Shown: piece by piece, positions 38,611-46,214 of the stretch | Numbering within the stretch: position 1 is the stretch's first letter | Layout: the number at the start of each line of letters is the position of its first letter | Origin: a virus | Lineage: Duplodnaviria > Caudoviricetes | Strand: one strand, 5' to 3' | IMG/VR virus record: IMGVR_UViG_3300037466_002533 | Span: 1-64,000 of that record | Length of the DNA stretch: 64,000 nucleotides | The notes under the pieces: generated by a model | Told to the model about the DNA's origin: nothing | Seen by the model: the letters and a program-made list of their open reading frames with translations, nothing else | Database searches by the model: none | Made by a program: the position numbers and the translations under genes

Positions 38611-38668
38611 AAGCAAAAGGCCCCTGCGCATTTGAGCATCGTGGAGAGGCTTGGCAGGGGCTCGGTTG

Positions 38669-42338: not shown

Positions 42339-42385
42339 TGTACCACACCTACCTATTGGTGGCTCCCAAGGGTAGGCACCCTACG

Positions 42386-42455
42386 TACCCGCACTGAGAG
42401 TCGAACTCAGCAACCGAACCTTCGGAGGGTTCGGCGCGCATCCGGCGCTACGGGT
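42386..42455 (-). tRNA. tRNA-Arg(CCG), atypical (no 8-9 connector, 7-bp anticodon stem)
   Basis: ACCCGTA GCGC CGGAT GCGC G CCGAACC CT-CCG-AA GGTTCGG TTG CTGAG TTCGACT CTCAG TGCGGGT A. Confidence 0.7.
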
Positions 42456-42456
42456 C

Positions 42457-42533
42457 TGGCGCCCCAGGCAGGATTCGAACCCGCATCGTCCGTTACGGCT
42501 GAACTGCTTAGAAGACAGTGCCGGTACTGGGGC
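42457..42533 (-). tRNA. tRNA-Arg(TCT), D-armless with long variable arm, CCA encoded
   Basis: GCCCCAG TACCGGC ACTGT CT-TCT-AA GCAGT [18 nt] GCGGG TTCGAAT CCTGC CTGGGGC G CCA. Confidence 0.7.
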
Positions 42534-42538
42534 CAGCG

Positions 42539-42610
42539 TCTCCCAGGAGGGATTCGAACCCCCAACCTAGACGTTAGGACCGTCTTGCTCTTCCGTTGAG
42601 CTACTAGGAG
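42539..42610 (-). tRNA. tRNA-Arg(CCT)
   Basis: cloverleaf, loop GT-CCT-AA. Confidence 0.88.
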
Positions 42611-44031: not shown

Positions 44032-44038
44032 AGCGATA

Positions 44039-44086
44039 CCCCCTCGGCTACAGGATTCCTATTTATTAGGCCTGCAGCCGAGGGGG
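44039..44086. terminator. strong hairpin downstream of the Ro gene
   Basis: CCCCCTCGGCT(A)CAGG...CCTG(C)AGCCGAGGGGG. Confidence 0.5.
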
Positions 44087-44139
44087 CTCGTATTAGCTGG
44101 TACGGCTATTGTACCCTCATACGGTACGATAGCCGACGA

Positions 44140-45801
44140 TCAGGACTCCCAGGGCCAGCTTCCGAATCCAGCCGCCTCGATGTTCTGCATCATGGCGAAC
44201 GCCGAGTCGGTCAAGCCTCCGACCGCGTAGAAGTTCCCGCGACCCTGCGGCGCATGAGCCGCCTGGTACCCGGCGACGTTGAACGTGAAGGTCGTGACAT
44301 CGGCGGGAACCACGTCCGGCAGGGACTTGCCGTAGTAGTCGGCCTGCTCGTCGGTGACGATCACCAACCGGTTGACGGCGCCTCGGAACCGACGCAGCAA
44401 CGTCTCGGCGACCTGAACGGTCCTGGTGCCTCCGGCGATGGGTAGCTCCTTGTAGAACCTCTGAATGTTGGACAGCAGCGAGGCGCTGTAGTCCACCGTG
44501 AACGGATCAGACCGGTCGTCGTAGGCGAACACCACGGCGTTCTCCGCACGCAGCGCCAGGGCCAGGCCGAAGGCCACTGCGTTGTCGTACCGGCTCACGG
44601 TTGAGTTGCCCGAAAGGAGGTCACTCATCGATCCGGAACGGTCGATCATCACCAGGGTGTCACCGGACAGCTCCGGCACCGAGCGCAGGGAGATGTCCAG
44701 GGCCTTGGACAGTGCTGGCTCCCACAGCTTGCGGTACTTGGGCTGTACGGCCTCCGACACAGTCCGGAGTCCGTAGTACCCGGCGGGCTGCGGAGCGACG
44801 GCGCGGTACGCGGACAGGAACCGCAGCGGGAGCTGCCTGGACGACAGCACCGCCTCCTCATCAGCGATCTTCTCGGCCACGAACTTGGCGTAGGAGTCCG
44901 AGATTCCGGCCTTTGCGAAGTTGCGGAGGTTGCGGATCAGCGCCATGTACCCCATGTTCGGGATCACGGACTCCCAGAAGGTCGCGGTCAACTCACCACC
45001 GAACCAGGATGCCAGGGACTCCCAGGTGTGTCCGGCGAGCCGGGCGGCATCCGGGTGATCCTTCAGGAACGCCTCACGTTCCTCCCGAGGGATGTCCGCC
45101 ATGACCTGGCGGTCGACCAGCGTCGTTAATCCCTGGTATCTGGATAGGTCGACGTTGTCGTATCGGCGATCCTGCGCGTAGGCGAAAACCGCTGCCTTGT
45201 AGGGGCTGTCGGTAGTGTCGACCTGAGACAGGGAGATGACGTCGCCGAAACGGATTGCGGCGCCCTGAGAGTCGTACTTCAGGACCGACTTCTCGTTGTA
45301 CAGGGCCTTCGCGGCATCACCCAGGGCGCGCTTGAACCACTTGGGCAACGGCTTGCCGTAGTTGGCCAGCCAATAGCCCAGGGCCTCGCTCGGCTCGTCG
45401 GCGCGCTGCAGCACGGAGCGTAGCACGGCACGAGGGGTGAGGCTGTCGAACGGAGCACGCCCGCTGACCGTCCGGCCATACTCGATGGCGCCGGTGATCG
45501 CGGCGGTGCGGATGTTCCCGCTGGTGCGCAGCCAGGAGAGGAAGTTGGCCACCCACTCCGGGTCGGCCTTTGCCACGGAGCGAATCAACTCGACGTAGCG
45601 GCTGTCGCGAGCCTCGGCGGACTCGTAATAGGTATCCTGGCCGGTGAAGTTGGTGACCCCCAGGAGGAACAGGGCGGACTTCTCGGCGTACGCGAATCCC
45701 TTGCCGCCGTTGCCGGTCGGCACGTCGGACTTCGGGGACGCGGTCAGCACCGAGGTGTTGCCACTCGGCGCGGTGCGCACGTTCTTGGTGAAGCGAGCCA
45801 C
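44140..45801 (-). CDS. rsr: Ro60/TROVE-domain RNA-binding protein with vWA domain
   Basis: GNIRTAAI, YDSQG, GYMALIRNLRN, SRQLPLRFLSAY TROVE motifs; IDRSGSMS and IVTDEQ vWA MIDAS; start reset to GTG 45801 after GGAGG. Confidence 0.92.
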   Translation of the reverse strand: MARFTKNVRTAPSGNTSVLTASPKSDVPTGNGGKGFAYAEKSALFLLGVTNFTGQDTYYESAEARDSRYVELIRSVAKADPEWVANFLSWLRTSGNIRTAAITGAIEYGRTVSGRAPFDSLTPRAVLRSVLQRADEPSEALGYWLANYGKPLPKWFKRALGDAAKALYNEKSVLKYDSQGAAIRFGDVISLSQVDTTDSPYKAAVFAYAQDRRYDNVDLSRYQGLTTLVDRQVMADIPREEREAFLKDHPDAARLAGHTWESLASWFGGELTATFWESVIPNMGYMALIRNLRNFAKAGISDSYAKFVAEKIADEEAVLSSRQLPLRFLSAYRAVAPQPAGYYGLRTVSEAVQPKYRKLWEPALSKALDISLRSVPELSGDTLVMIDRSGSMSDLLSGNSTVSRYDNAVAFGLALALRAENAVVFAYDDRSDPFTVDYSASLLSNIQRFYKELPIAGGTRTVQVAETLLRRFRGAVNRLVIVTDEQADYYGKSLPDVVPADVTTFTFNVAGYQAAHAPQGRGNFYAVGGLTDSAFAMMQNIEAAGFGSWPWES

Positions 45802-45821
45802 GATGTTCCTCCACTGGGTTG

Positions 45822-45894
45822 GGTTCCGATATAAGGGTGGGATCGGTTGGGTTTCCATTATGAGTGAAGTAACCGAACCCAGCACACCGGAACC
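45822..45894 (-). ncRNA. minimal Y RNA (YrlB-like, no tRNA domain)
   Basis: GGTTCC GGTGTG ... GTTACTTC ... TTATATC GGAACC; same terminal motifs as the two adjacent YrlA. Confidence 0.7.
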
Positions 45895-45906
45895 GATGTC
45901 ACGAGT

Positions 45907-45924
45907 AGTGTAGCACAATCTTTT
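45907..45924 (-). promoter_or_regulatory. AAAAGATT-N4-TANNNT promoter for minimal Y RNA and rsr
   Basis: minus strand AAAAGATT GTGC TACACT. Confidence 0.55.
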
Positions 45925-45932
45925 TGCATGGC

Positions 45933-46071
45933 GGACAGATATAGAGGCGGCCTTGGTCTTTCGTCAGCCCGCTCTACCACTTGAGCTACCAGCCCCGAAA
46001 TGGAACTGGACGGGATTCGAACCCGCAACCTAGCTGGTTCATAGAAGTATCCATGACCTGCGCACCTGTCC
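45933..46071 (-). ncRNA. yrlA: YrlA-type Y RNA 1
   Basis: GGACA GGTGCG...GATACTTC...GCGGG TTCGAAT CCCGT CCAGTTCC ATTTC GGGGCTGG TA GCTC AAGTGGTA GAGC...TATATC TGTCC. Confidence 0.88.
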
Positions 46072-46083
46072 TACCAGGTAGCT

Positions 46084-46214
46084 GAGCAGATATAAGTCGC
46101 ACGAGGAAATGTTAGCGCTCTGCCATTGAGCTACCGCCCCATTGGAGCGGCCGGGACTCGAACCCGGATCTCTCTGTTCATAATCAGAAGTAACCTCGAA
46201 CTACGCACCTGCTC
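46084..46214 (-). ncRNA. yrlA: YrlA-type Y RNA 2
   Basis: GAGCA GGTGCG...GTTACTTC...CCGGG TTCGAGT CCCGG CCGCTCC AAT GGGGCGG TA GCTC AATGGCA GAGC...TTATATC TGCTC. Confidence 0.88.

What the first reader, a model, noticed from the sequence alone, without database searches (positions are those of the whole stretch)
45822..45894. Minimal 73-nt Y RNA hidden in the Ro leader
Seen: GGTTCC/GGAACC closing stem with the GGTGTG, GTTACTTC and TTATATC motifs of the two YrlA RNAs, but no tRNA domain. It lies between its own promoter (45907-45924) and the rsr RBS, inside what the ORF track calls coding sequence. Inference: it is either a released YrlB-like RNA or a cis leader through which Ro autoregulates its own mRNA.
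Basis: partly seen in the sequence, partly recalled or inferred. Interest (0 to 1): 0.7.

Follow-up and report, generated by a model that had tools for sequence, protein, structure and literature searches.

The report
Minimal Y RNA leading phage Ro
A 73-base hairpin just upstream of a phage's Ro (rsr) gene is a real small "Y RNA" without a tRNA-like part; this type proves common next to Ro genes in actinobacterial phages, so it is a solid but fairly ordinary new member of a known kind.

Summary
Window 45822-45894 (minus strand) is a 73-nt stem/internal-loop/stem/loop RNA. It shares its closing stem and its 5' and 3' boxes with the two YrlA-type RNAs just upstream, and it has no tRNA domain.

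A covariance model built only from 19 similar elements in other viral contigs hits exactly these coordinates, full length (49.6 bits, E about 1e-9). It finds nothing comparable elsewhere in the 88.8-kb record.

About 100 rsr loci from viral contigs, metagenomes, one actinobacterium and two cultured phages carry arrays of such modules upstream of rsr on the same strand. I counted 185 distinct modules, 103 of them minimal.

The ORF-track start (TTG 45918) is an artefact. Homologue N-termini place the rsr start at GTG 45801, behind a GGAGGA ribosome-binding site.

The "own promoter" is plausible. It is one of 12 copies of a box, AAAGAT-N3-6-TANNNT, of which 0.16 are expected by chance.

Most likely this is a YrlB/Yrn2-like Ro partner, transcribed as the 5' leader of rsr and then released. 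Cis autoregulation of rsr is not excluded and not supported.

Its Ro box (GGUGUGCUG) departs from the family consensus at two conserved positions. The scan had already noted the three-Y-RNA array on this same DNA.

The parts
45822..45894 (-). Y3: a 73-nt minimal Y RNA module. It has a closing helix, an internal loop with the Ro box, helix 2 and an apical loop.
   Evidence: Fold. Full-length match to CM R1, which was built from other contigs: 49.6 bits, E 1.3e-9.
45880..45888 (-). 5' box GGUGUGCUG. The family consensus is GGUGCGnAG, the presumed Ro-contact strand.
   Evidence: Column counts over 54 other modules: C at column 11 in 50 of 54 (Y3 has U); A at column 14 in 46 of 54 (Y3 has U).
45866..45872 (-). 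The UUACUUC motif that opens the apical loop.
   Evidence: Nearly invariant in the family: columns 26-31 are conserved in 50 to 54 of 54 modules.
45839..45880 (-). Helix 2 (GGGUUCGG / CCGAUCCC, 7 of 8 pairs with one U.U) enclosing the apical loop.
   Evidence: Anchored helix-2 analysis of 181 modules: mean 7.0 of 8 pairs, against 5.85 with swapped tails.
45828..45834 (-). 3' box UUAUAUC. UAUAUC is the window-specific form of the family's GAUCUC/GUUCUC.
   Evidence: Column 163 is C in 54 of 54 other modules and A in Y3; the same UAUAUC is read in the two window YrlAs.
45907..45923 (-). Promoter-like box AAAGAT-TGTGC-TACACT. The predicted start is about 45899-45901, 5-7 nt before the Y3 stem.
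   Evidence: Pattern AAAGAT-N3-6-TANNNT: 12 matches against 0.16 expected, 11 on the minus strand. The generic sigma-70 scan does not call it.
45807..45812 (-). GGAGGA Shine-Dalgarno of rsr, starting 10 nt after Y3.
   Evidence: Sequence. Unpaired in the centroid fold of the leader.
44140..45801 (-). rsr (Ro60/TROVE), true start GTG 45801.
   Evidence: Pfam TROVE, E 4.6e-16. tblastn hits begin at residue 1. The closest homologues start MARFT / MSRFT, aligned to V-ARFT.
45934..46070 (-). YrlA-2: a Y RNA with a permuted tRNA-like domain.
   Evidence: RF02553, 37.1 bits, E 2e-6, below the gathering score. Shares the boxes.
46084..46214 (-). YrlA-1: a Y RNA with a permuted tRNA-like domain.
   Evidence: RF02553, 36.0 bits, E 4e-6, below the gathering score. 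Shares the boxes.
44035..44135 (-). Two strong hairpins just after the rsr stop; probably the end of the Y3-rsr unit.
   Evidence: Fold -64.5 kcal/mol, z = -8.8. There is no long U tract, and the terminator scan does not call them.

Best explanation
Y3 is a genuine Y RNA of the tRNA-less type, like M. smegmatis/Salmonella YrlB, D. radiodurans Yrn2 and Thermus phage Yrl1/2. It is the third and rsr-proximal member of a YrlA-YrlA-minimal array inside the phage's tRNA island.

Inferred mechanism:
- Transcription starts at the AAAGAT/TACACT box, a few bases before the closing stem. It reads through Y3 into rsr and stops at the hairpins after rsr.
- Y3 is therefore made as the 5' leader of the Ro mRNA and in step with it.
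- The closing helix plus internal loop (5' GGUGUGCUG, 3' UUAUAUC) is the Ro docking site.
- Cleavage or trimming in the 20-nt spacer would release a Ro-bound RNA of about 73-80 nt. Lacking the tRNA-like tether, it would act as a gate on Ro or as an adaptor to another partner, rather than as the PNPase-type tether proposed for YrlA.

Shown here: family membership, structure, position, the true rsr start, and recurrence of the promoter box. Inferred: Ro binding, release from the mRNA, and the gate or adaptor role.
For: - A CM from 19 minimal modules of other contigs (A1, R1) matches 45822-45894 end to end at 49.6 bits, E 1.3e-9. This is the only strong hit in the 88.8-kb record.
- The family's closing helix is 96% paired, with compensatory changes in 6 of 8 pairs. 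No shuffle of 500 reaches the covariation score.
- Helix 2 averages 7.0 of 8 pairs against 5.85 in the control, with GC/CG/AU/UA alternation.
- Linkage to rsr is tight: 153 model hits in 79 rsr loci, all on the rsr strand and nearly all within 1 kb upstream. The bacterium Marinactinospora has the same layout.
- The order YrlA, minimal module, short spacer with free SD, rsr recurs in Gordonia phage Rabbitrun (27-nt spacer). In L207 a minimal module likewise lies 30 nt before rsr, behind another minimal module.
- All three window modules share the lineage-specific UAUAUC, as expected if one Ro reads all three.
- Literature: M. smegmatis YrlB lies between YrlA and rsr and is processed from one precursor. 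Every studied species has a tRNA-less hairpin Y RNA (PMC4201824). Phage phiLo Ro binds two upstream Yrl RNAs (PMC12135203).
- Promoter box. rsr start.
Against: - Y3's 5' box departs from the family at two of its most conserved columns: U for C (50 of 54 others have C) and U for A (46 of 54 have A). No other module examined combines both changes. It also lacks the CGAA / GNCGAAN0-1G core named in the literature, so Ro binding could be weak or lost.
- No orthologue from a close relative was available. The best Ro homologue whose context I could see is 48% identical.
- No terminator or known processing site separates Y3 from the SD, so release is an assumption.
- The promoter box has a spacer 1 nt longer than most copies and fails a standard sigma-70 scan.
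Confidence: 0.7

Rival explanations
1. Cis-acting operator. Y3 works mainly while still attached to the rsr mRNA. Ro binds the closing helix, which ends 10 nt before the SD and 20 nt before the start codon. This blocks 30S binding (negative autoregulation), or instead protects the 5' end of the mRNA from decay.
For: - The promoter box makes Y3 the obligatory 5' leader of rsr.
- The spacer to the start codon is the shortest seen: 20 nt, against 27-56 nt in relatives.
- Many relatives place a different control element, an SD-burying CUCCC...GGGAG hairpin, at this position. Translation of rsr therefore seems to be regulated in the family, and the window lacks that hairpin.
- The closest Ro homologue whose context I could see (L141, 48%) has at its SD a mini-hairpin CCCGGUGUG...GUAUCGGG. 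It carries only the Y3-like basal helix.
Against: - The RNA alone does not occlude the SD.
- Y3 keeps the complete architecture of free-standing modules (helix 2, the UUACUUC loop), which an operator would not need.
- The L141 case is a single example; 5 other regex hits were chance matches.
- No Ro autoregulation is reported in the papers read (PMC4201824 has no mention of autoregulation).
Confidence: 0.15
2. Decaying duplicate. Y3 is a degenerate copy of a Y module that has lost Ro binding. It persists only as a stable 5' hairpin of the rsr transcript, or as neutral spacer.
For: - There are two substitutions in the otherwise near-invariant Ro box, a combination unique among the modules examined.
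- Its CM score (49.6 bits) is in the lower half of minimal-module scores, which run 53-69 bits for most.
Against: - All 16 modelled pairs are canonical, the length is full, and the UUACUUC and lineage-specific UAUAUC boxes are intact.
- Each single substitution occurs in other, apparently intact modules: U at column 11 in 4, U at column 14 in 5.
- The U for C change creates a U-A pair with the lineage-specific A, so it looks compensatory rather than decayed.
Confidence: 0.1
3. Coding sequence. The region encodes an N-terminal extension of Ro, starting at TTG 45918 or ATG 45858.
For: The frame is open from 45918.
Against: - The five closest homologues (51-65% identity) align from MARFT / MSRFT to the GTG 45801 start.
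- The only one with an extension has an unrelated sequence there.
- tblastn alignments to phage Ro genes start at residue 1.
- A GGAGGA SD precedes GTG 45801 and none precedes the other candidate starts.
- The stretch is a covarying RNA family member.
- The same over-call is seen in the Rabbitrun annotation.
Confidence: 0.02

Closest known systems
YrlB of Mycobacterium smegmatis, and the tRNA-less hairpin Y RNAs Yrn2 (D. radiodurans) and YrlB (S. Typhimurium); Chen et al. 2014, PMC4201824
   Same: - A second Y RNA beside a tRNA-like YrlA.
- In M. smegmatis it lies between YrlA and rsr on the same strand and is co-transcribed.
- A long hairpin formed by pairing the 5' and 3' ends, with the Ro motif near the 5' end.
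- Lies in sequence mis-annotated as the N-terminus of a CDS (reported there for YrlA).
   Different: - M. smegmatis YrlB is said to keep a possible T-arm; Y3 has none.
- Y3's box is GGUGUGCUG rather than GNCGAAN0-1G.
- Y3 is phage-encoded, sits in a tRNA island, has a promoter-like box of its own and ends 20 nt from the start codon.
Yrl1 and Yrl2 of Thermus phage phiLo (PMC12135203)
   Same: Phage-encoded, tRNA-less, stem/bulge/stem RNAs directly upstream of the phage Ro gene. They are shown to bind phage Ro and host PNPase.
   Different: The phiLo Ro is only 24.9% identical over the tblastn match. The Yrls were picked by a CGAA motif that Y3 lacks. No array with YrlA-type members is described there.
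YrlA (Rfam RF02553)
   Same: The same Ro-docking stem and boxes as the two window YrlAs. The same locus and strand.
   Different: Y3 lacks the defining tRNA-like domain and gives no RF02553 hit, even at E up to 10.
Metazoan Y RNAs (Rfam RF00019)
   Same: A terminal helix carrying the Ro site, with a 5' strand GGU-G/C-x-G resembling GGUCCGA. In the window lineage the helix is more fully paired, as in animals (G-C, G-U, U-A, G-U ...).
   Different: No sequence homology is detectable. The transcription machinery differs. There is no bulged C and no La-binding U tail.

Membership tests
   49.6 bits, E 1.3e-9, model positions 1-73 of 73, no non-canonical pair.
   Ends 20 nt before GTG 45801. In the family, all 153 hits are on the rsr strand.
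Bacterial Y RNA (Chen et al. 2014 criteria) | Encoded within about 4 kb of a Ro60 orthologue, on the same strand. | tested here: met
Bacterial Y RNA (Chen et al. 2014 criteria) | [quoted passage not shown] | tested here: met
   12 consecutive pairs in the MFE fold. The family helix covaries.
Bacterial Y RNA (Chen et al. 2014 criteria) | GNCGAAN0-1G (CGAA) motif near the 5' end. | tested here: not met
   Y3 reads GGUGUGCUG. The family consensus GGUGCGnAG only resembles the motif, and Y3 lacks both the C and the A.
Bacterial Y RNA (Chen et al. 2014 criteria) | Bound by Ro/Rsr, with Ro-dependent accumulation. | not testable with these tools
   Needs immunoprecipitation, EMSA or Northern blots.
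YrlA (RF02553) | A tRNA-like domain (T-arm, D-arm, acceptor-like stem) between the strands of the Ro stem. | tested here: not met
   No RF02553, tRNA or ARAGORN hit on 45822-45894. The loop is only 26 nt.
Autoregulatory 5'-UTR operator (ribosomal-protein or coat-protein type) | The protein's binding site overlaps or abuts the RBS of its own mRNA. | tested here: inconclusive
   The stem ends 10 nt before the SD, and the SD is not paired. Binding and repression were not tested.

The most novel reading that the evidence does not exclude
The phage makes its Ro protein from an mRNA whose 5' leader is itself a Y RNA. Ro would bind that leader to set its own translation or mRNA stability, so that a Ro-Y RNA pair works as a self-contained feedback unit. 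The basal-helix-only hairpin at the SD of the nearest relative (L141) would be the stripped-down operator form of this arrangement.
Probability: 0.15. Interest if true: 0.6.

Novelty: new member of a known kind. Interest (0 to 1): 0.35.

Why it matters
Ro60-Y RNA particles are conserved from bacteria to humans, where they are a major autoantigen. The roles of the tRNA-less Y RNAs are the least understood part of the system.

This element itself is one more member of that class. The session also shows that such minimal modules are very common: 103 distinct ones in about 100 rsr loci. They sit in ordered arrays with YrlA-type RNAs, are absent from Rfam, and are routinely over-annotated as protein, including in GenBank records of cultured Gordonia and Streptomyces phages.

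The window, together with Gordonia phage Rabbitrun, offers a tractable case in which the minimal Y RNA is the leader of the Ro mRNA. That makes the question of released RNA versus cis regulator directly testable.

Tried and rejected
- Rfam at gathering and at E up to 10: nothing real on Y3, only a 16-bit mir-1397 hit on the opposite strand.
- megablast and blastn of the locus against phage records: no close relative, only a 74-nt tRNA-like match to Gordonia phage GMA2.
- Searches for a close orthologue of Y3:
  - Ro-based scans of viral, metagenome and genome contigs gave at most 48% identity.
  - The protein database holds homologues at 65% and 51-55% identity.
- The MAFFT alignment mis-registers helix 2 (53-61% paired). 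I replaced it with an anchored analysis.
- The generic sigma-70 and terminator scan found nothing at the locus.
- Longer folds that include coding sequence gave unstable alternatives with no significant z-score, so I did not use them.
- SD sequestration by Y3: rejected.
- A regex search for further 'basal-helix-only' hairpins at rsr SDs found only L141.
- The weak full-length RF02553 hit at 42405-42509 (24.6 bits) looks like overlapping odd tRNAs, not a fourth Y RNA.

Full report
**What is there.** The window is part of an 88.8-kb IMG/VR viral contig. Its minus strand carries a tRNA island at about 38.6-47.9 kb, with 37 ARAGORN tRNAs. A Ro60/TROVE gene sits in the middle of the island (Pfam TROVE, E 4.6e-16). 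It is 33-39% identical to the "Ro-like RNA binding proteins" of Streptomyces and Gordonia phages.

Read on the minus strand, the 400 nt before that gene hold three units:
- YrlA-1 at 46214-46084
- YrlA-2 at 46070-45934
- the reported element at 45894-45822, here called Y3

**Checking the observation.**
- Y3 reads exactly as described and folds into a single long hairpin: -29 kcal/mol, z = -3.9, and 0 of 200 shuffles fold as well.
- The composite motif GGTGYG-N5-15-RKWTACTTC occurs three times in 64 kb, against 0.00 expected. The three sites are these three units.
- The two upstream units give sub-threshold YrlA (RF02553) matches on their permuted tRNA-like cores (E 2e-6 and 4e-6). Y3 gives no tRNA or YrlA signal at all.
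- The motif sharing is approximate. Both YrlAs have GGTGCG rather than GGTGTG, and YrlA-2 has GATACTTC and CTATATC.

**It is not coding.**
- The mechanical ORF runs from TTG 45918.
- tblastn alignments to phage Ro genes begin at residue 1 of the GTG-45801 protein.
- The five closest homologues in the protein database (51-65% identity) begin MARFT / MSRFT / MARYT, aligned to V-ARFT. The only one with an N-terminal extension has unrelated sequence there.
- GGAGGA lies 5 nt before GTG 45801.
- The same over-call exists in GenBank for Gordonia phage Rabbitrun. There the annotated Ro CDS starts inside a Y module, 48 nt upstream of where homology begins.

**Relatives and family.**
- Ro-based and pattern-based scans brought in about 100 rsr loci. 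Upstream of rsr, on the same strand, they carry arrays of 1-6 modules. Each module runs: closing stem, GGUGCGnAG, helix 2, UUACUUC, a variable domain, the return strand of helix 2, and (G/U)(A/U)UCUC plus the closing stem.
- Many modules carry a T-arm or a full tRNA-like domain. Many others are only 68-84 nt with no such domain.
- I aligned 19 minimal modules from other contigs (A1) and built model R1. R1 hits the window at 45822-45894, model positions 1-73 of 73, 49.6 bits, E 1.3e-9, with all 16 pairs canonical. This is the only strong hit in the whole 88.8-kb record.
- Across 24 sources R1 found 55 modules. Across 79 further rsr loci it found 153, all on the rsr strand and nearly all within 1 kb upstream. 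It also hits Streptomyces phage BRock and Gordonia phage Rabbitrun, where these RNAs are unannotated or overlaid by "hypothetical protein" calls.
- After removing duplicates there are 185 distinct modules, 103 of them 90 nt or shorter.

**Structure support.**
- The closing helix is 96% paired, with compensatory changes in 6 of 8 pairs. None of 500 shuffles reaches the covariation score, and slid registers fall to 40-61% paired.
- MAFFT and the CM mis-register helix 2 (53-61% paired). I therefore anchored it on the invariant UUACUUC. The mean is then 7.0 of 8 pairs, against 5.85 when 3' tails are swapped between modules. Positions 2, 3 and 5 alternate among GC, CG, AU and UA, and position 4 often holds a mismatch.
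- Y3 fits this pattern: GGGUUCGG pairs with CCGAUCCC in 7 of 8 positions, with the U.U at position 4.

**How Y3 differs.**
- Over 54 other modules, column 11 is C in 50 and column 14 is A in 46. Y3 has U at both, giving GGUGUGCUG. Each change occurs alone in a few other modules, but the combination is unique.
- All three window modules have UAUAUC at the 3' box, where column 163 is C in 54 of 54 other modules. In this lineage U9 pairs with that A, and in Y3 U11 also gains an A partner. The basal helix therefore becomes 12 uninterrupted pairs.
- A 3' box shared by all three modules argues that one Ro reads all three. The altered 5' box is the main reason for caution about Ro binding.
- Strictly, Y3 lacks the GNCGAAN0-1G / CGAA motif used in the literature (PMC4201824, PMC12135203).

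**Arrangement.**
- The usual order is minimal module first and YrlA-type last, followed by a 37-56-nt spacer before rsr.
- In many relatives that spacer folds into a CUCCC...GGGAG hairpin that buries the SD.
- The window has the reverse order: YrlA, YrlA, minimal, then a 20-nt spacer with a free SD.
- This is not unique. Gordonia phage Rabbitrun has minimal, YrlA-type, minimal, then 27 nt before rsr, and its proximal module has a similar loop (...AUGAAACCCACAC against ...AUGGAAACCCAAC). L207 has a minimal module 30 nt before rsr.
- It also matches M. smegmatis, where YrlB lies between YrlA and rsr and both are cut from one precursor (PMC4201824).

**Promoter.**
- The sigma-70 scan finds nothing at this site.
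It gives 12 matches against 0.16 expected, 11 of them on the coding strand and typically upstream of gene starts. One lies at 45923-45907, with a spacer 1 nt longer than most copies.
- Its -10 element ends 12 nt before the Y3 stem, so transcription would start 5-7 nt before the stem.
- Nothing terminator-like separates Y3 from rsr. Two very stable hairpins follow the rsr stop (z = -8.8).
- The best reading is therefore a transcription unit of promoter, Y3, rsr, hairpins, in which Y3 is the mRNA leader. In Rabbitrun and L207 the gap before the proximal minimal module is only 13-15 nt. A dedicated promoter is therefore not a general feature of the family.

**Mechanism.**
- Most likely (0.7): Y3 is a Ro-binding, YrlB/Yrn2-like Y RNA, made together with the Ro mRNA and released by cleavage or trimming. 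Because it lacks the tRNA-like tether, it would gate Ro or link it to a different partner.
- Cis operator on rsr translation or stability (0.15). For it: the obligatory leader position, the shortest spacer seen, the missing SD hairpin, and one relative (L141, Ro 48% identical) with a basal-helix-only hairpin CCCGGUGUG...GUAUCGGG fused to its SD. Against it: the SD is free in the RNA-only fold, Y3 keeps the full module architecture, and L141 is a single case.
- Decayed copy (0.1).
- Coding extension of Ro (0.02).

**Novelty and verdict.** tRNA-less Y RNAs next to Ro are known in bacteria (PMC4201824), and phage Yrl RNAs are known to bind phage Ro (PMC12135203). Y3 is a new member of that kind. 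The wider result, a large minimal-module family that is absent from Rfam and often mis-annotated, is useful but incremental. Interest 0.35.

**Limits.**
- E-values from R1 are rough, because calibration was shortened.
- All functional statements are inferences from sequence.

Noticed in passing
L018, L020, L034, L039, L044, L049, L069, L070, L086, L125, L026: the spacer between the last Y module and the rsr start: In many relatives this 37-60-nt spacer folds into a CUCCC...GGGAG hairpin whose 3' arm is the Shine-Dalgarno (-13 to -29 kcal/mol). It looks like a conserved translational control of rsr. The window and L007 lack it.
   Followed up: partly
L141:2390-2417: The closest Ro homologue whose context I could see (48% identical) has, fused to its SD, a 28-nt hairpin UCCCGGUGUG-AUUGAUUG-GGUAUCGGGA. 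It reproduces only the basal helix of Y3 (CCGGUGUG / UAUCGG), with no helix 2 or UUACUUC loop. It was the only such case found.
   Followed up: partly
window 6846, 7863, 11726, 14704, 25163, 30497, 35906, 43691, 45907, 55632 (minus strand): A promoter-like box (A)AAAGAT(A/T)-N3-5-TANNNT recurs 12 times against 0.16 expected, 11 of them on the coding strand. It is probably a phage-specific promoter class.
   Followed up: partly
window 45826-45834, 45938-45946, 46088-46096 (minus strand): All three window Y modules carry UAUAUC where column 163 is C in 54 of 54 modules from other loci (GAUCUC/GUUCUC/UUUCUA forms). L141 also has UAUC. This may reflect co-evolution of the RNA box with this Ro lineage.
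   Followed up: partly
L234 (Gordonia phage Rabbitrun NC_060133) 803-877 and 1094-1174; L235 (Streptomyces phage BRock) 778-968: Cultured phages carry unannotated Y modules. In Rabbitrun one lies under 'hypothetical protein' gp93 and another under the annotated 5' end of the Ro CDS (gp95). That CDS starts 48 nt upstream of where homology begins.
   Followed up: yes
window 42385-42549 (minus strand): Overlapping odd ARAGORN tRNA calls (Ile 42385-42473, Arg 42457-42549) coincide with a weak full-length YrlA match (24.6 bits) and a weak tRNA-Sec match. This is an aberrant tRNA-like pair, not a convincing Y RNA.
   Followed up: partly
window 38622-38658 (minus strand): An abiF RNA motif (RF03085) scores above its gathering threshold: 51 bits against 37. 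It lies at the downstream edge of the tRNA island.
   Followed up: no
window 44035-44135 (minus strand): Two very stable hairpins lie directly after the rsr stop (-64.5 kcal/mol, z = -8.8). The second has about 20 GC-rich pairs and no long U tract.
   Followed up: partly
L153 (Marinactinospora rubrisoli NZ_JBHTBH010000012) 1223-1445: A bacterial chromosome shows the same unit: minimal module, YrlA-type module, SD hairpin, rsr. The phage arrays therefore mirror an actinobacterial host arrangement.
   Followed up: partly
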